A DNA stretch of 64,000 bases, from the IMG/VR virus record IMGVR_UViG_3300027902_000008, positions 1 through 64,000 of that record. The stretch is one strand, 5' to 3'. The DNA is from a virus. A model generated the notes under the pieces. The model was given only the letters and a program-made list of their open reading frames with translations. It searched no databases and was not told the DNA's origin. The position numbers and the translations under genes are program-made. The stretch's first letter is position 1. Each line of letters starts with the position of its first letter. Of the stretch, positions 8,421 to 64,000 are shown piece by piece.

Positions 8421-10447
8421 TGGCTTCTAACCTTATCTTAAGAGTTGCTTCTGAATTTGACCCAAAGGGTTTTAATCAATTAAAGCAAAATCTTGAGGAT
8501 GTAAAGCAAAAAACCCAACAGACTGCTACTGCTTCTGCAAGTATGGGTGAAAGCTTTAGGGCATTAACTCAGATTATAGGTGGTGCTGTTTTAACACTGC
8601 CTTTAACTGGCTTTATTAAAGAAGCCATTACAAGCGAAGAAGTAACTTCAAGATTTAGAATGCAGGTAGAGTCTCTTGGCAAAAGTTTTACAGGGATAAA
8701 CCTTGAGGCTATCATAAAACAAACAAGAGATTTAGCAGGGATAACATCTACAGAGCTTGTAAAAGCTTTGAGTTCTGGCTTAGTATATTTCAAAGATACA
8801 GATAAAGAACTCCAATACCTTAATACTGCGATAGGTATGACTAAAGTTAGGGGAGTTGACCTTGCTACTGCGTTTCAACAACTTGGTTATATTATGCTTG
8901 GTTCAACTCGTGTTGCTCGCCTTTATGGTATCTCTATACATAGTGAAATTCACGACCCTTCCCAAAGAGCTGCTGTCATATTAGATGAAATGAGAAAAAA
9001 GATGGAACCTTTAGCCAAGCAGACTGGCACTACTGCTGAAGCCTTAAAGATAATGGGTGCTAATATCAAGGATATAGGAGAAAAAATAGGCGGTGCTTTG
9101 ATTGCTCCTATAGGTGAAGTGGCAAAGGCTTTTAATGGATTAAGCGATACTATGAAAGAATTTATAGTTGTTTCTGGTTTATCTATAACTACTATTAGCG
9201 GATTAGTAACGGCTGGTGTAGGAATATTAAGCTTGATAACAAAGCTTAAGGCTTCTGGTGGCTTGGTTGCTGCTTTAGGATTTATTGGCGGTGGTGCTGG
9301 GGCACTTATGTCTGCTGGTCTTTTAGCTGCTATAAGTCTTTTTATTGTATCTCTTATGAAGTTGAAAGAGGCACAGGACGCAGTTAGCAGGGGGGCTAAA
9401 GAATATTCTGATTTTGCATCAAGGGCTATGGTTGCAAGGGCAACCGATGCTAATACTTCAATTACTATGGAAGAGAAGTTTGCTGATAAACTTAAAGATA
9501 CAGCTGAAATAAGACAACAACTTGCTTTTCAAGAAGCTAAATATCATCAGCTTGGTAATACTGCCTTGGAAGAAAGAGCTAAGAAAGAAAAAGACCAAGT
9601 TCAACAGATTTATAATGGAATGAAAAAAGAGGTTGATGAAAGAACTAAGATGAATATAACAACCTTGGCTCAGGAAGAAAAATTCCAATTGAAAATGAGA
9701 GAAATTGCCAATGCTTCTATGAAGGAAGGTCTTGATAAAGATTTGGAAGCCTTAAGAACAAAGGCTTATCAAGAACGTGAAGCAATGATTAAGACCTATG
9801 CAGATACCCTTGAAATAAGAAAAGCCTTAACTGCTAAAGAAGCTGCGGAAGAGGCACAGATAAGGCAAAAATATATTGAAAAAGAATTAGAATATGCCCT
9901 TATGTCAGGCGAAGAACAGAAGAAATTTGATGAAGATTATAAGGCTGCTCAAAGAGATTTATCTAATAAGAACCTTGATACCATAAAAAATATATCTGAT
10001 GAAGAGAAGAAGTTTTTGCAAGATTCAAAAGGTGCTCAAAAAGCCCTGAAGGAATGGACTGAAGACCAAGCTAAAGTTCAAGCAAAGGCATCTCAAGATA
10101 GTCGTGAAGCACAAATCTTAATGAAGACCTACGCTATTCAAAGAGAAATTGATAGAGCAAAAGAAGTTCTTGGTAATGAGAATGTAGTAGCTTCATTAGA
10201 AGAGAAGTTAAAATTAGCCAAGCAAGTTGCAGAACAAGAACAGGTAGGGATTAAAGGTCTTACAAGTTTTACTGAAACTGCTAAGGTAGAGGAAAAAAAG
10301 GTTGCACAGATAAATCTTAACAGTCAAGTTAATGTTTCTATAACTCCTTCCTTATCAGAGTTATCTGGCGTTGTTGGTAAGAAAGTTCAAGATGAAGTTA
10401 GCAAACAATTAGAAGATAATAAAAGAAAATGGTTGCCAACTTACTAA
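8420..10447 (+). CDS. Tape measure protein (675 aa)
   Basis: Ala/Lys/Glu-rich helical protein with a central hydrophobic Gly-rich segment; follows the G/GT chaperone. Confidence 0.85.
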   Translation: MASNLILRVASEFDPKGFNQLKQNLEDVKQKTQQTATASASMGESFRALTQIIGGAVLTLPLTGFIKEAITSEEVTSRFRMQVESLGKSFTGINLEAIIKQTRDLAGITSTELVKALSSGLVYFKDTDKELQYLNTAIGMTKVRGVDLATAFQQLGYIMLGSTRVARLYGISIHSEIHDPSQRAAVILDEMRKKMEPLAKQTGTTAEALKIMGANIKDIGEKIGGALIAPIGEVAKAFNGLSDTMKEFIVVSGLSITTISGLVTAGVGILSLITKLKASGGLVAALGFIGGGAGALMSAGLLAAISLFIVSLMKLKEAQDAVSRGAKEYSDFASRAMVARATDANTSITMEEKFADKLKDTAEIRQQLAFQEAKYHQLGNTALEERAKKEKDQVQQIYNGMKKEVDERTKMNITTLAQEEKFQLKMREIANASMKEGLDKDLEALRTKAYQEREAMIKTYADTLEIRKALTAKEAAEEAQIRQKYIEKELEYALMSGEEQKKFDEDYKAAQRDLSNKNLDTIKNISDEEKKFLQDSKGAQKALKEWTEDQAKVQAKASQDSREAQILMKTYAIQREIDRAKEVLGNENVVASLEEKLKLAKQVAEQEQVGIKGLTSFTETAKVEEKKVAQINLNSQVNVSITPSLSELSGVVGKKVQDEVSKQLEDNKRKWLPTY

Positions 10448-10456
10448 AGGTGTAAA

Positions 10457-10918
10457 ATGAGAACAAAGGTAATATGGGCTCAAGGGTCAGGTGGAACAGG
10501 AACTCAATATACATTTAGCCCAAAACCTGGCATTATAAGAAGTATGCCAGCACAGAGAAATGCTGTTTTTGAAATTCCAAATCTTAATGGTGCCGTAGTC
10601 CAGACTTTAGGATTGGCAACCAGAAGAATAGAAATAAGCGGTATTATCTATGTTTATCCTCCTAATTTTGATAATTTGGTAGATGCCAAGACAAATCTTG
10701 AAAATGGCATAGGCACAGGAGAAGGTGAATTACATATTATATCTGATTTTGGGAATACTAATTCAAGACATATTTATTACAAAGGCATTTTAGATGGCGA
10801 GATAAAATGGGCTGAACAGAAAAATATGTCTTTTCTTGAATATTCATTCACTATACTTTGTGCAGACCCTAATGAATATGGTTATTCAGGATATTCTGGT
10901 TATAGCGGTATAACTTAA
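10457..10918 (+). CDS. Distal tail (Dit-like) protein
   Basis: Directly after the tape measure; LGLATRRIEISG and YSFTILCADP are Dit-like motifs; ends in GYSGYSGYSG. Confidence 0.65.
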   Translation: MRTKVIWAQGSGGTGTQYTFSPKPGIIRSMPAQRNAVFEIPNLNGAVVQTLGLATRRIEISGIIYVYPPNFDNLVDAKTNLENGIGTGEGELHIISDFGNTNSRHIYYKGILDGEIKWAEQKNMSFLEYSFTILCADPNEYGYSGYSGYSGIT

Positions 10919-10927
10919 GGAGATTAG

Positions 10928-11878
10928 ATGGCACTCGCAGAATTAAAGTTATATAAAGTAAGCACGGAATATGGAACAATAGGCAACCCTATAGTATTTA
11001 GCGGTGCTGTAGCAGGAGTTATAACGAATTACTCTTTAAATCCACTTTATCTGTGGAATGATAAGGGAGGAGGATTAGGAAGCGTCCCAGCAAAGACTAT
11101 TGTTATACAAGTTCTTGATATGTGGATTCAGAATGAGGCTTTAGGAACGAGTAGTGGAGCACCTAACCAAACTTTCAATACTGACGTTACTCCGATAGTA
11201 GACACAGGTCTTGCTGAGGAGATTTTGGTAATGGTAGCAGGCGTAGTTTGGGATAGGGTAGGTAGTTTTACAGGAGAAGCACCCTCAGCAGAAGTTTATA
11301 CCATTGATTCTACAGGTTTGGTTACTTTTGGAAATAGCGTTAATGGTAAAATCCCCCCTATAAGCAGTGCTATTACTATAACATATATGCCAGATTTGGT
11401 TGCTTATGGAAAATATTTGACATCTGCTGATTGGCTTGAAGTAAAATCATTAGGTTGCACAACAAACCCTGTAACAGTTATAGATGAACAGAAATCCTCT
11501 TTTGATACAACCCACGTCTACGCTTCCAATATCCAACTACTGACAGTTTCAGGAGTATGGCTTCAATCAGACCCTACTCATATTGGAACTAACTATTACA
11601 CAGGTGGTTCTTTCATACCCTTAACTGGCGAAATAGTGTTAGGAACTCCTTTGGCTGGTGCGGTTACTCCTGTTTTGATAAGTTATACCCACACTATGAT
11701 AGATGACGCTGAATCAGATTATACGCCTATAGGAGACGCTACTTCTCATACTTTTACAAATCCTATATGCCAGAATAATGCTAAGTTACTTTACTTTAGG
11801 CTTAATATTCCTGCTGCTACCCTTCCAACTGGTGGCAGTAATATTAACTTTCGTGTTAGATTGAGTTATAAACAATAG
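10928..11878 (+). CDS. Tail tip/baseplate protein
   Basis: LGTSSGAPNQTF and WDRVGSF...YTIDSTGLVTFGNSVNGKIPP resemble baseplate wedge/J-type repeats. Confidence 0.55.
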   Translation: MALAELKLYKVSTEYGTIGNPIVFSGAVAGVITNYSLNPLYLWNDKGGGLGSVPAKTIVIQVLDMWIQNEALGTSSGAPNQTFNTDVTPIVDTGLAEEILVMVAGVVWDRVGSFTGEAPSAEVYTIDSTGLVTFGNSVNGKIPPISSAITITYMPDLVAYGKYLTSADWLEVKSLGCTTNPVTVIDEQKSSFDTTHVYASNIQLLTVSGVWLQSDPTHIGTNYYTGGSFIPLTGEIVLGTPLAGAVTPVLISYTHTMIDDAESDYTPIGDATSHTFTNPICQNNAKLLYFRLNIPAATLPTGGSNINFRVRLSYKQ

Positions 11879-18745: not shown

Positions 18746-19282
18746 ATGCGTTTAAATAAGAAAGCAGAGGTATTCACTCTTACGGTTTTAATTGCCGTAG
18801 GGATTGCTATGTTTTTATTGGGGACTACAAATAATCCAATAAAGACAATCTTTGGTTTGGGTAATGCTGGACAAAAAACCAAACAATCAGTTATTACCAA
18901 AACTGAAAGTTACCCTGTATTTGTTAAGGATGTAAATACAGGTAAGTTGTATGTTTTGCAGACAACCAAATCAGAGACTTCCACCCTGAATACCAATGAA
19001 GAGCCAAAAATGACCATCTGGCAAAAGTTGTTAGCACTTCCGAGATTATGGCTTATATTGATGATTTTAGGGATATTCTTCCCGCCAGTAGCAGCTATTA
19101 TGGGAGTGATAAACAAGACGCTTTGGAATAAGGCAAAGCAGATAGTGGGGGGAGTGGAAGAGTCCTTGAAAAACCTTGAAACCACTCAGCCAGATGCCAA
19201 GCAGAAGGTTTTAGACACATTATCTAAAAAATATGATTCCAGCACGAAGTTGTTTGTATCTAAGATTAAGAGCAAGTTATAG
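18746..19282 (+). CDS. Membrane protein, last gene of the late operon
   Basis: Two hydrophobic segments; followed by a terminator. Confidence 0.55.
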   Translation: MRLNKKAEVFTLTVLIAVGIAMFLLGTTNNPIKTIFGLGNAGQKTKQSVITKTESYPVFVKDVNTGKLYVLQTTKSETSTLNTNEEPKMTIWQKLLALPRLWLILMILGIFFPPVAAIMGVINKTLWNKAKQIVGGVEESLKNLETTQPDAKQKVLDTLSKKYDSSTKLFVSKIKSKL

Positions 19283-19288
19283 AAGAAT

Positions 19289-19337
19289 ACGCCCATAGGT
19301 TCCGAGGTAGTTTGACCGCTTATGGGCGTTTCTTTTT
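19289..19337 (+). terminator. Rho-independent terminator closing the structural operon
   Basis: ACGCCCATA...TATGGGCGT stem followed by TTCTTTTT. Confidence 0.7.
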
Positions 19338-19580
19338 GGCACCGCCCTGTTTTAAGCCCTTCTTTGCCTCCTATTTGCCCCGCAGAGCCAAAATTCTCTA
19401 AAAATCAAAGCCCTCTATGACCTTTTTGAAAACGCCTGTAAACGCAAATTAGAGCCGAATTTCCCCTTTTTAACCCTTGCCAAAGGGGTAAGAAGAGAAA
19501 TCAGGCAAAACCGAACCTGACAGCGTCGGGAAATGACCTATTTGCCAAAACTGTCTTAATGTTGGAATATGATAAAATTA

Positions 19581-19609
19581 TTGACAATAATATAATGAAA
19601 TGGTATATT
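19581..19609 (+). promoter_or_regulatory. Sigma70-type promoter
   Basis: TTGACA, 17-nt spacer, TATATT with extended -10 TG; AT-rich upstream. Confidence 0.8.
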
Positions 19610-19615
19610 TATTAT

Positions 19616-20196
19616 AGAAATATAAAGATGATATATCCGCCCTGTGTGGAGGTTCTTTGAAAAAGAAAGGTTAGGAGTAAGTAAGGGGAAAAGCCCCTGA
19701 AGCGAGGCAGGTAAAACATCGCCCTGTGTGAGAGTCCCTGCTGAGTAGCAAAGGAGTTCCTGAGTGCTGGCATAGAACCAGAGGAAGGACAGAACGGATG
19801 AGTAGGAGAGAAACCGAAAGATTACTTTGCGAAATACCCTTGAAAGCCGATAACCATAAGACCAATTCCGATGACAAGGATAGGGGCGGTTAAAACCTGC
19901 CGAATGGTTCAAAACAATAAAGTCCTTTAGACTTGCTACGAAAGCAGACTTCTAAGCGGTAGCACGAGTAGGCTGGTATTCCAATCTTAATTGCCTGTAA
20001 ATATAGCCAATTATGGCTTTGAGCCTTAGAGCTCTCAAAAACAGGCTTATATTAAGGAAGCGAATACTGTAAATGCAGAAATGCGAAACTCTGTAATCCA
20101 AAAGAGGTATGCATTATAGTTGAAGTGGCACCGAAACAACATAGATTTGTGGAAAGCCACCAATGACACAAATGAACTTACCCATATTACAGAGTT
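19616..20196 (+). ncRNA. Candidate large structured ncRNA (~580 nt)
   Basis: No + strand ORF, GC-richer than its flanks, many nested helices, immediately downstream of a consensus promoter and bounded 3' by a ribozyme cleavage site. Confidence 0.6.
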
Positions 20197-20234
20197 AGCA
20201 GGAACTGGCTATTCCTGCTCTGATGAGCGAGCCA
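20082..20234 (+). ncRNA. Type II hammerhead ribozyme with loop I pseudoknot and large stem III insertion
   Basis: Core GAAA at 20085-88; stem III ACTCTGTAAT/ATTACAGAGT; GUU cleavage triplet 20194-96; stem I AGCAGGAA/TTCCTGCT; CTGATGA at 20220-26; short stem II; loop TGGCT pairs with AGCCA (20230-34). Confidence 0.8.
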
Positions 20235-20527
20235 AAAAAATGAGGTGAAAATGAGAAAATATAGACCTGATTTAAACTTTTGGCAGTTGTTAAAGCTTGC
20301 AGATAAAGGCGACAAAAGAGCACAGAGAGAAATTAAGAGAATAGAGAAATCAAAAGGAAAGGAGGCGGTATGACAGTATCTAAGGCAATATCTCAACTGG
20401 AAAAAGACCTTAAAATTTGTATGAAGAGAGGTTGGATTCCAGAGTATACAGACGAGAAGTTGCACGGCATTGCAAAAAGTATAATTTACAGCGAAAAAAG
20501 GTATATGAGAAAGGGGGCGAGAAAGAA

Positions 20528-20926: not shown

Positions 20927-21175
20927 ATGAAAATCAAGGTTGCAAGGCTTTACAAATTAAGCGGTGATAAACCGCTTAAAGCATTAGTGGACATCTCTCT
21001 TGATGATAAGTTTATTGTTAAGGGATTGAGAGTTATTGAAGGAAAGAAAGGGTTATTTGTATCTATGCCAAAAGAAAAAGGTGTAGATAAAAGGTGGTAT
21101 GACACGGTTACGATTACGGACATAACCACAAAGAAAGAGATTGAAAAAGCAATATTGGAAGTTTACGCAAAATAA
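20927..21175 (+). CDS. spoVG: SpoVG family nucleic-acid-binding protein
   Basis: LKALVDISLDDKFIVKGLRVIEGKKGLFVSMP is the SpoVG signature. Confidence 0.9.
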   Translation: MKIKVARLYKLSGDKPLKALVDISLDDKFIVKGLRVIEGKKGLFVSMPKEKGVDKRWYDTVTITDITTKKEIEKAILEVYAK

Positions 21176-63524: not shown

Positions 63525-64000
63525 TAAAGCAATATGAGCCTTACTTTGGCAAGGAAGAAGCAGATGCTTTGACAGAGTATATGAAGTCAGGCGGTTGGAT
63601 TACAGAGTTTAAGAAAACCGCTGATTTTGAAAATAAGATAAAAGACTTCTTAAAGGTAAAATATTGTTCGGTAGTTAATAACGGAACTATCAGTTTGACA
63701 TTGGCACTTTTGGCAGTAGGCGTTAAGGCTGGCAATGAGGTGATAGTTCCCAATCTGACTATGATAGCCACTCCAAACGCAGTAAGGTTGATGGGTGCAA
63801 AGCCCATATTTGTAGATGTTTGCAAAGAAAATCTCTGTATGGATTTAGAACAAGCTATCACAAAGTTCAACAAAAAGACAAAGGCAGTTATATATGTGTC
63901 TCTAAACGGCAGGTCTCACGAAGCAGAATTAGATGTCTTTAAGAAGAAGTGTGCTGATTACAAGATAGCCTTTATAGAAGATTCTGCACAATCATTTGCC
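63521..64000 (+). CDS. DegT/DnrJ PLP-dependent sugar aminotransferase (perosamine-synthase-like), 3'-truncated, not in the ORF track
   Basis: Hand translation: [13 protein letters not shown]...VNNGTISLTLAL...EVIVPNLTMIATPNAV...GAKPIFVDV...IEDSAQSF. Confidence 0.92.
   Translation, partial: MIKQYEPYFGKEEADALTEYMKSGGWITEFKKTADFENKIKDFLKVKYCSVVNNGTISLTLALLAVGVKAGNEVIVPNLTMIATPNAVRLMGAKPIFVDVCKENLCMDLEQAITKFNKKTKAVIYVSLNGRSHEAELDVFKKKCADYKIAFIEDSAQSFA

What the first reader, a model, noticed from the sequence alone, without database searches (positions are those of the whole stretch)
20082..20234. Type II hammerhead ribozyme with an ~88-nt structured insertion in stem III
Seen: every conserved core nucleotide is present in the type II permutation (GAAA ... 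GUU / stem I / CUGAUGA), with a perfect 10-bp stem III, a perfect 8-bp stem I and a 5-bp loop I/3'-tail pseudoknot (TGGCT/AGCCA). The stem III loop (20098-20185) is itself folded: GTTG/CAAC, ATTTGTG/CACAAAT and a crossing GTGGC/GCCAC pair. Inference: cleavage after 20196 separates the upstream large RNA from the early mRNA, whose first RBS (GAGGTG, ~20242) follows immediately. The insert could be a natural allosteric or protein-binding module.
Basis: partly seen in the sequence, partly recalled or inferred. Interest (0 to 1): 0.75.

Follow-up and report, generated by a model that had tools for sequence, protein, structure and literature searches.

The report
Phage hammerhead ribozyme with oversized loop
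A complete type II hammerhead (self-cutting RNA) sits just before the first gene of an operon in an uncultivated 93-kb phage; it is an ordinary member of a known phage ribozyme family, except for an 88-base loop that shows no sign of a function of its own.

Summary
The hammerhead is real. Every core nucleotide, a 10-bp stem III, an 8-bp stem I, a 3-bp stem II and a 5-bp loop I/3'-tail pseudoknot are at the stated coordinates. Predicted cleavage is between U20196 and A20197.

It matches type II pseudoknot hammerheads from other viral contigs, down to an identical loop I and tail. Like 12 of 14 of them, it ends a few bases before a Shine-Dalgarno sequence and start codon.

It is the only such hit in the 92,940-bp genome. 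It lies in a roughly 635-nt ORF-free leader behind a near-consensus promoter.

Rfam Hammerhead_II scores only 20.2 bits against a cut-off of 37. The 88-nt stem III loop forces the model onto a decoy CGAAAC inside the loop.

The claim that the insert is "structured" is not supported. Its helices and folding energy are at chance level, it matches no known aptamer, and it shows no special complementarity to the ribozyme.

Twenty comparison hammerheads span 65-79 nt, while this one spans 153 nt. No relative carrying this element was found, so no covariation test was possible.

Earlier notes of this scan report hammerheads with large stem insertions in other phages.

Verdict: a new member of a known kind, with an unusually large and probably passive loop.

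The parts
19289..19338 (+). Terminator-like hairpin (ACGCCCATA / TATGGGCGT, 9 bp) followed by a T-run. It ends the preceding late/structural operon.
   Evidence: Inverted repeat I7; sequence. The simple terminator scan missed it because its loop is 23 nt.
19581..19609 (+). Sigma-70-type promoter: TTGACA, 17-nt spacer, extended -10 TG, TATATT. The transcription start is inferred near 19616.
   Evidence: 11 of 12 matches, TG present. It is one of only 6 plus-strand sites at >=11/12 in the whole 93-kb genome.
19616..20081 (+). ORF-free leader RNA upstream of the ribozyme. It would be the body of the 5' cleavage product.
   Evidence: No plus-strand ORF over 33 aa. GC is 43% against 36% for the genome. 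No Rfam match at E<=5. MFE z-score -2.8 for 19616-20240.
20082..20084 (+). Stem II, 3'-side strand (UGC). It pairs with GCG at 20227-20229.
20085..20088 (+). Core G12 A13 A14 A15.1 (GAAA).
20088..20097 (+). Stem III, 5' strand.
   Evidence: inverted repeat I5.
20098..20185 (+). 88-nt stem III loop (the 'insert'). It contains a decoy CGAAAC at 20132-20137.
   Evidence: The decoy is used by Rfam RF02276 and by my own model R1.
20186..20195 (+). Stem III, 3' strand, ending in U16.1.
20196..20197 (+). U17 and the predicted scissile bond, between 20196 and 20197.
   Evidence: Position follows from hammerhead geometry (NUH rule, established knowledge) applied. Not tested experimentally.
20197..20219 (+). 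Stem I hairpin: 8 bp closing loop I, CUGGCUA (20205-20211).
   Evidence: Loop I is identical to those of hammerheads L108 and L112.
20220..20226 (+). Core C3-A9 (CUGAUGA).
20227..20229 (+). Stem II, 5'-side strand (GCG; G10.1 is 20227).
20230..20234 (+). Pseudoknot strand AGCCA. It pairs with UGGCU (20206-20210) in loop I.
   Evidence: The partner sequences covary across comparison hammerheads.
20242..20373 (+). SD GAGGTG (20242-20247) and the first ORF of the operon (ATG 20251, 40 aa).

Best explanation
This is a genuine type II, pseudoknot-stabilised hammerhead ribozyme. It belongs to the family common in phages and prophages.

It is transcribed as part of a roughly 635-nt untranslated leader from the promoter at 19581-19609. 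Once stem III closes around the 88-nt loop and loop I pairs with the AGCCA tail, the core cleaves between U20196 and A20197.

Cleavage would give two RNAs:
- A roughly 580-nt leader fragment that ends in a 2',3'-cyclic phosphate directly after the 10-bp stem III hairpin.
- The operon mRNA, which starts with a 5'-OH on the first base of the 8-bp stem I hairpin, about 45 nt before the SD.

The likely effect is a defined, hairpin-capped 5' end for the mRNA, insulated from the long leader.

The 88-nt loop is most likely a tolerated expansion of a peripheral loop, or simply part of the leader RNA. It is probably not a sensor.

Shown: the motif, its non-random nature, its family resemblance and its placement. 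Inferred: cleavage in vivo, the transcript ends and the effect on expression.
For: - All defining core and helix features are present and Watson-Crick.
- 0 of 600 genome shuffles approach it.
- The 3' half aligns to Rfam RF02276 at high posterior probability.
- It is the only hit of that model in the genome, E = 0.006.
- It is also the only hit of my own model R1, which was built from 14 viral or bacterial type II hammerheads (22 bits, E = 0.004 over 215 kb; 25 bits with filters off).
- Those 14 covary in their stems: 11 of 12 pairs show compensatory changes. Their pseudoknots covary too.
- Loop I (CUGGCUA) and the tail (AGCCAA) are identical to L108 and L112.
- In 12 of 14 comparators an SD-led ORF starts 21-68 nt after CUGAUGA. 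Here the ATG is 24 nt after it.
- The active fold (-35.4 kcal/mol plus about -5.8 for the pseudoknot) is level with the MFE of -41.2.
- Perreault et al. 2011 (PMC3088659) define this architecture. They showed self-cleavage for tested examples (the tandem arrays) and proposed mRNA processing in phages.
Against: - No relative carrying this element was found, so there is no covariation or conservation for this copy.
- It is below Rfam's gathering score (20.2 against 37 bits).
- Position 17 is U, whereas all 14 parsed comparators have C. A14 and U17 could extend stem III into an 11-bp helix (I5), which would be non-native.
- The plain MFE prefers an alternative hairpin over stem I.
- The 88-nt loop is well outside the comparators' range of 3-19 nt.
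- No RNA data could be obtained.
Confidence: 0.72

Rival explanations
1. The hammerhead is active and the 88-nt stem III domain is functional. It could be a ligand- or protein-responsive module that gates closure of stem III (a natural aptazyme). Alternatively it could be a dedicated 3'-terminal domain that stabilises a functional ~580-nt phage ncRNA, or gives it a binding site.
For: - The insert is unique among 20 comparators, whose total spans are 65-79 nt against 153 nt here.
- No other type II hammerhead with a 90-120-nt stem III domain appeared in an IMG/VR pattern scan.
- Insert GC is 40% against 36% for the genome.
- The upstream leader is GC-enriched, ORF-free and folds somewhat better than shuffles.
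- From general knowledge, engineered aptazymes show that stem III tolerates aptamers and can be gated by them.
- Perreault et al. speculate on regulated phage hammerheads.
Against: - Insert helices and folding energy are at chance level.
- No Rfam family matches at E<=10.
- There is no above-chance pairing between the insert or leader and the catalytic 3' half.
- There are no homologues to show selection.
Confidence: 0.13
2. The motif descends from a real hammerhead but is now slow or inactive. It would be a relic whose stem III loop was expanded by an insertion and whose C17 mutated to U, and which is kept only as leader sequence.
For: - U17 instead of the family's C17.
- The oversized loop.
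- Orphan status.
- A competing MFE fold.
- Absence of hammerheads in the three related viral records searched whole and downstream of the homologous gene in 14 related loci.
Against: - Every invariant core base and all 26 stem and pseudoknot pairs are intact, with no mismatch at all. That is not expected of a decaying element.
- U17 satisfies the NUH rule (established knowledge).
- A loop insertion closed by a perfect 10-bp helix should not disturb the core.
Confidence: 0.12
3. A chance occurrence of the hammerhead consensus in AT-rich intergenic DNA.
For: - The motif is short. Loose versions (stems >=4 bp, G-U allowed) occur in about 16% of genome shuffles.
- Perreault et al. warn that consensus matches occur by chance in large databases.
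Against: - Observed stem I + stem III is 18 Watson-Crick bp, against a maximum of 14 in 600 shuffles.
- It also has a 5-bp pseudoknot at the canonical position.
- Loop and tail are identical to bona fide family members.
- It has the right strand, an intergenic location and the family-typical position before an SD.
Confidence: 0.03

Closest known systems
Type II hammerhead ribozymes with a loop I / 3'-tail pseudoknot (Perreault et al. 2011, PMC3088659; Rfam RF02276 Hammerhead_II)
   Same: - The same core (CUGAUGA, GAAA, A15.1-U16.1, N-U-H site).
- Stems I and III are hairpin-closed and stem II is open and 3 bp long.
- A 5-bp pseudoknot lies immediately 3' of stem II.
- Phage intergenic location just upstream of a gene start.
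- Loop I and tail are identical to IMG/VR examples L108 and L112.
   Different: - The stem III loop is 88 nt, against 3-19 nt in the 14 parsed comparators.
- The cleavage triplet is GUU instead of GUC.
- It is solitary rather than in tandem arrays.
- It follows a promoter-proximal 466-nt non-coding leader rather than an upstream gene.
- Its score is below Rfam's gathering cut-off.
Discontinuous hammerhead of rodent Clec2 3'UTRs (Martick et al. 2008; mentioned in Perreault et al. 2011 Discussion)
   Same: A natural hammerhead with a very large loop separating the two halves of the ribozyme. It has been discussed as a possible handle for regulation.
   Different: It is eukaryotic. By my recollection it is a different permutation, with the large insertion in another stem and hundreds of nucleotides long. 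There is no pseudoknot and no homology.
Synthetic ribozyme insulators and aptazymes (RiboJ; stem III aptamer-hammerhead fusions), from general knowledge
   Same: A hammerhead placed between a variable 5' leader and the RBS. It leaves a 5'-OH, hairpin-capped mRNA. Engineered designs show that stem III tolerates added domains.
   Different: These are engineered type III or type I scaffolds. Nothing shows that the natural insert here binds anything.
glmS ribozyme and the c-di-GMP-gated group I intron (natural ligand-controlled ribozymes), from general knowledge
   Same: They would be the functional precedent if the insert were a sensor that controls self-cleavage in a leader.
   Different: They are unrelated folds. 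No ligand-binding signature, conservation or switch complementarity was detected here.

Membership tests
Type II hammerhead ribozyme (Rfam RF02276; Perreault 2011) | Invariant core strand C3-U4-G5-A6-N7-G8-A9 | tested here: met
   CUGAUGA at 20220-20226.
Type II hammerhead ribozyme (Rfam RF02276; Perreault 2011) | G12-A13-A14 followed by an A15.1-U16.1 pair, plus a G10.1-C11.1 pair closing stem II | tested here: met
   GAAA at 20085-20088; A20088-U20195; G20227-C20084.
Type II hammerhead ribozyme (Rfam RF02276; Perreault 2011) | Cleavage-site nucleotide 17 is not G (NUH rule) | tested here: met
   U20196, triplet GUU. All 14 parsed comparators have C17. One further R1 hit (L160) has A17.
Type II hammerhead ribozyme (Rfam RF02276; Perreault 2011) | Three helices around the core in the type II permutation: stems I and III closed by loops, stem II open | tested here: met
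   Stem I 8 bp, stem III 10 bp, stem II 3 bp, with both RNA ends at stem II. The definition is quoted.
Type II hammerhead ribozyme (Rfam RF02276; Perreault 2011) | Pseudoknot of at least 4 bp between loop I and the nucleotides immediately 3' of stem II | tested here: met
   UGGCU 20206-20210 with AGCCA 20230-20234, 5 bp, starting directly after stem II.
Type II hammerhead ribozyme (Rfam RF02276; Perreault 2011) | Operational threshold, not a structural feature: the Rfam gathering score of 37 bits | tested here: not met
   20.2 bits. The model skips stem III as a local end and anchors on the decoy CGAAAC at 20132-20137. That anchoring gives a 1-bp stem II and a 2-bp stem III. My own model R1 behaves the same way. 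The shortfall comes from the 88-nt loop, not from a missing feature.
Type II hammerhead ribozyme (Rfam RF02276; Perreault 2011) | Conservation and covariation of this copy in related genomes | tested here: inconclusive
   The 178-aa neighbouring gene has 35 homologues. None of the 14 related loci or the 3 whole viral records searched holds a hammerhead or alignable DNA. The downstream gene is an orphan.
Type II hammerhead ribozyme (Rfam RF02276; Perreault 2011) | Mg2+-dependent self-cleavage giving 2',3'-cyclic phosphate and 5'-OH ends | not testable with these tools
Known riboswitch/aptamer families (for the 88-nt insert) | A match to any Rfam aptamer or other structured-RNA model | tested here: not met
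   In the E<=10 scan of 19900-20400, the only matches overlapping the insert apart from the hammerhead were noise: a snoRNA model and an antisense lncRNA model.

The most novel reading that the evidence does not exclude
The 88-nt stem III domain is a functional module. Either it gates closure of stem III in response to a ligand or phage/host protein, which would make this the first natural allosteric hammerhead. Or it is the 3'-terminal domain of a new ~580-nt phage ncRNA whose 3' end is made by the ribozyme. In that case one promoter would yield both a stable ncRNA and a hairpin-capped early mRNA.
Probability: 0.13. Interest if true: 0.75.

Novelty: new member of a known kind. Interest (0 to 1): 0.3.

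Why it matters
What bacterial and phage hammerheads are for is still an open question (review PMC6765202).

This copy is a clean test case. It is a single ribozyme sitting between a strong promoter with a long non-coding leader and the first RBS of an operon. The effect of cleavage on mRNA 5'-end identity, stability and translation could therefore be measured with one construct.

The oversized stem III loop also shows how covariance-model thresholds can miss bona fide ribozymes that carry peripheral insertions.

If the insert proved functional, it would be the first natural regulated hammerhead. The present evidence does not favour that.

Tried and rejected
1. BLASTN of 19283-20400 against GenBank phages gave no match.
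2. Single-protein scans of IMG/VR found no useful relatives. The 178-aa and 553-aa neighbours gave none, and the ligase gave only distant hits of 25-27% identity.
3. An alignment-based scan with the 178-aa family returned 12 metagenome and 3 viral loci. None has a hammerhead or DNA similarity downstream of the gene. Rfam RF02276 run over the three whole viral records found nothing.
4. Exact and degenerate core patterns in IMG/VR and GTDB genomes returned only compact type II hammerheads and chance coding hits.
5. A pattern requiring a 100-130-nt gap between CGAAAC and loop I found no other long-stem-III type II hammerhead.
6. The two-copy leader motif CGCCCTGTGTG returned 6 IMG/VR hits. All are tandem-repeat coding DNA, not relatives.
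7. The inner CGAAAC (20132-20137) chosen by both covariance models was rejected as the real 5' half. It gives only a 1-bp stem II and a 2-bp stem III.
8. The 16-nt reverse-complement match at 63595-63610 was rejected as a trans substrate, because the next bases cannot form stem I.
9. No other ribozyme or hammerhead was found elsewhere in the genome.
10. A switch-like pairing of the insert or leader with the catalytic half is not above shuffles.
As a result no RNA reads could be laid, and the two closest ENA contigs could not be examined (P0002, 80% identity, 4.4 kb; P0007, 92.3 kb).

Full report
**Context.** The window is the first 64 kb of a 92,940-bp IMG/VR virus record that CheckV rates complete. 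GC content is 36%, and nearly all long ORFs lie on the + strand. The finding lies in the only long gene-free gap of this part of the genome. The 178-aa ORF ends at 19282, and the next convincing gene starts at ATG 20251 behind GAGGTG.

**The motif.**
- Stem II: U20082-G20229, G20083-C20228, C20084-G20227.
- GAAA: 20085-20088.
- Stem III: 20088-20097 with 20186-20195, ten Watson-Crick pairs including A15.1-U16.1.
- Stem III loop: 88 nt, 20098-20185.
- U17: 20196.
- Stem I: 20197-20204 with 20212-20219, eight Watson-Crick pairs closing loop CUGGCUA.
- CUGAUGA: 20220-20226.
- Tail AGCCA (20230-20234), pairing with UGGCU (20206-20210) of loop I.

A purpose-written scanner for the type II permutation finds this as the only solution in the whole genome on either strand.

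**Chance.** Loose versions of the motif (stems of at least 4 bp, G-U allowed) occur in about one shuffle of the genome in six. In 600 dinucleotide-preserving shuffles, stem I + stem III never exceeded 14 bp. The observed value is 18 bp, all Watson-Crick, and that is before counting the pseudoknot.

**Database models.**
- Rfam 15 reports nothing at gathering thresholds except a tRNA.
- With relaxed thresholds, Hammerhead_II (RF02276) matches 20129-20237 at 20.2 bits, E = 0.14 for the 501-nt scan. For the single family over the genome, E = 0.006.
- The 3' half (GUU, stem I, CUGAUGA, GCG, AGCCAAA) aligns at high posterior probability.
- For the 5' half, the model jumps to a second CGAAAC at 20132-20137 inside the loop. 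That anchoring gives only a 1-bp stem II and a 2-bp stem III, so it is an artefact of the penalty for a long local end.
- A covariance model that I built from 14 natural type II hammerheads (R1) behaves identically. It scores 25.3 bits with two non-canonical stem II pairs flagged, and it finds the true AAUGCGAAAC 5' half as a separate fragment.
- R1's only hit in the entire phage genome is this site.
- The failure to reach the Rfam cut-off is therefore explained by the 88-nt loop.

**Family comparison.** Pattern scans of IMG/VR and of GTDB species genomes returned type II pseudoknot hammerheads in L067, L078, L105, L106, L108, L111, L112, L131, L153, L160 and L176.
- Their stems covary: 11 of 12 RNAalifold pairs show double changes.
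- Their pseudoknots covary: UGGC/GCCA, GGGU/ACCC, UGAG/CUCA, GACC/GGUC, GGCC/GGCC.
- The window's element shares GCGAAAC, CUGAUGAGCG and AGCCAA with them. Its loop I (CUGGCUA) and pseudoknot are identical to those of L108 and L112.
- In 12 of 14 comparators an SD-led ORF begins 21-68 nt after CUGAUGA. Here the ATG is 24 nt after it.
- This matches the description and functional proposal of Perreault et al. 2011 (PMC3088659). They describe pseudoknots of at least 4 bp immediately 3' of stem II, hammerheads flanking genes in prophages, and processing of long phage transcripts.

**What differs.**
- All 20 comparison hammerheads detected by R1 span 65-79 nt. The 14 parsed ones have stem III loops of 3-19 nt and a GUC site.
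- This element spans 153 nt, has an 88-nt loop and uses GUU.
- A dedicated IMG/VR scan for type II hammerheads with a 100-130-nt gap between CGAAAC and loop I found none.
- The large loop is therefore rare, at least within this sequence sub-pattern.

**Is the insert structured or functional?**
- The named complementarities exist: GTTG 20119-20122 with CAAC 20137-20140, ATTTGTG 20145-20151 with CACAAAT 20167-20173, and GTGGC 20125-20129 with GCCAC 20156-20160.
- They are at chance level. 11.6% of shuffled inserts contain a Watson-Crick helix of at least 7 bp, and the top-three helix sum has p = 0.28.
- The MFE of -14.5 kcal/mol has a z-score of -1.19.
- No Rfam family fits at E<=10.
- Neither the insert nor the upstream leader pairs with the catalytic 3' half better than shuffles do.
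- There is thus no positive evidence for an allosteric or protein-binding module. The reading cannot be excluded without homologues or experiments.

**Transcription context.**
- A terminator-like hairpin with a T-run follows the 178-aa gene at 19289-19338.
- The promoter is TTGACA (19581), a 17-nt spacer, TG, then TATATT (19604-19609). It is one of only six + strand sites at >=11/12 in the genome.
- From about 19616 to 20250 there is no plausible ORF, and the minus-strand 117-aa ORF has no Pfam match.
- The leader is GC-enriched at 42-43% and folds moderately better than shuffles, z = -2.8. It has no Rfam match.
- In the full-leader fold, stem III with its loop remains an independent terminal hairpin.
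- The ribozyme therefore does not separate late from early transcripts, because a terminator and a promoter already do that. It separates a roughly 580-nt leader from the operon mRNA.

**Mechanism proposed.** Co-transcriptional folding and cleavage at 20196/20197 would give two products:
- A leader RNA ending in the stem III hairpin with a 2',3'-cyclic phosphate.
- An mRNA beginning with a 5'-OH at the first paired base of stem I, followed by the core remnant, the pseudoknot tail, an A-run and the SD.

By analogy with engineered ribozyme insulators (general knowledge), this would give a uniform, hairpin-protected 5' end. The active secondary structure plus the pseudoknot is energetically level with the competing MFE.

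**Caveats.**
- U17 is permitted but atypical for this family.
- A14 and U17 could extend stem III by one non-native pair.
- Nothing here demonstrates cleavage.

**Search for relatives.**
- The 178-aa neighbour has 35 homologues at 51-80% identity.
- Fifteen related loci were fetched; L100 repeats L089's contig, so 14 are distinct. None has a hammerhead or alignable DNA downstream. Three whole viral records lack RF02276 hits.
- The first sizeable downstream protein is an orphan.

**Earlier notes of this scan.** Another first-stage note (e1-5979797) reads 19616-20196 as a large ncRNA with a ribozyme-defined 3' end. My checks support the promoter, the absence of ORFs and the GC enrichment, but not yet a conserved structure. 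Notes from other genomes (e1-5368607, e1-5729153) report phage hammerheads with large stem III insertions next to folded RNAs. I did not verify them.

**Verdict.** This is a bona fide new member of the type II pseudoknot hammerhead family, in its usual job position just before an RBS. It has an unusually large stem III loop that is probably passive. Interest is modest.

Noticed in passing
window 19616-20081: A promoter-proximal 466-nt ORF-free leader. GC is 43% against 36% for the genome, it is rich in GNRA-like GAAA loops, and the MFE z-score is about -2.8. It has no Rfam match and no relatives were found. It may be a new structured phage RNA or just a long 5' UTR.
   Followed up: partly
window 20927-21175: A SpoVG-family protein (Pfam PF04026, 72 bits), encoded a few genes downstream of the ribozyme in the same operon. 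From general knowledge, SpoVG proteins bind nucleic acids.
   Followed up: no
window 63595-63610: An exact 16-nt reverse complement of the stem III 5' strand plus core As (20086-20101), inside an ORF. The flanking bases cannot form stem I, so it is not a trans substrate. It is probably chance (BLAST E = 0.018).
   Followed up: yes
window 20132-20137: A second CGAAAC inside the stem III loop acts as a decoy. It captures both Rfam RF02276 and my own covariance model and produces a misleading alignment.
   Followed up: yes
window 20003-20018: A small hairpin, AGCCA-AUUA-UGGCU, carries the same two 5-mers as the ribozyme's pseudoknot. AUAGCCA (20003-20009) is 7-nt complementary to loop I and the first base of stem I's 3' strand. 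It could be an alternative partner, but it is not above chance.
   Followed up: partly
window 19339-19560: Several short direct repeats upstream of the promoter: CCTATTTGCC twice, ATGACCTnTTTG twice and GCCAAAAyTsTCT twice. They could be operator or iteron sites.
   Followed up: no
L111 (IMGVR_UViG_3300035451_000006), about 7400-11700: At least nine tandem type II pseudoknot hammerheads with covarying pseudoknots. The five checked each sit 21-68 nt before the start codon of a small SD-led gene. This is a striking array for studying ribozyme-punctuated operons.
   Followed up: partly
window 19638-19648 and 19720-19730: An exact 11-nt repeat, CGCCCTGTGTG, occurs twice in the leader. All IMG/VR pattern hits were tandem-repeat coding DNA, so no relatives were found by this route.
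   Followed up: yes
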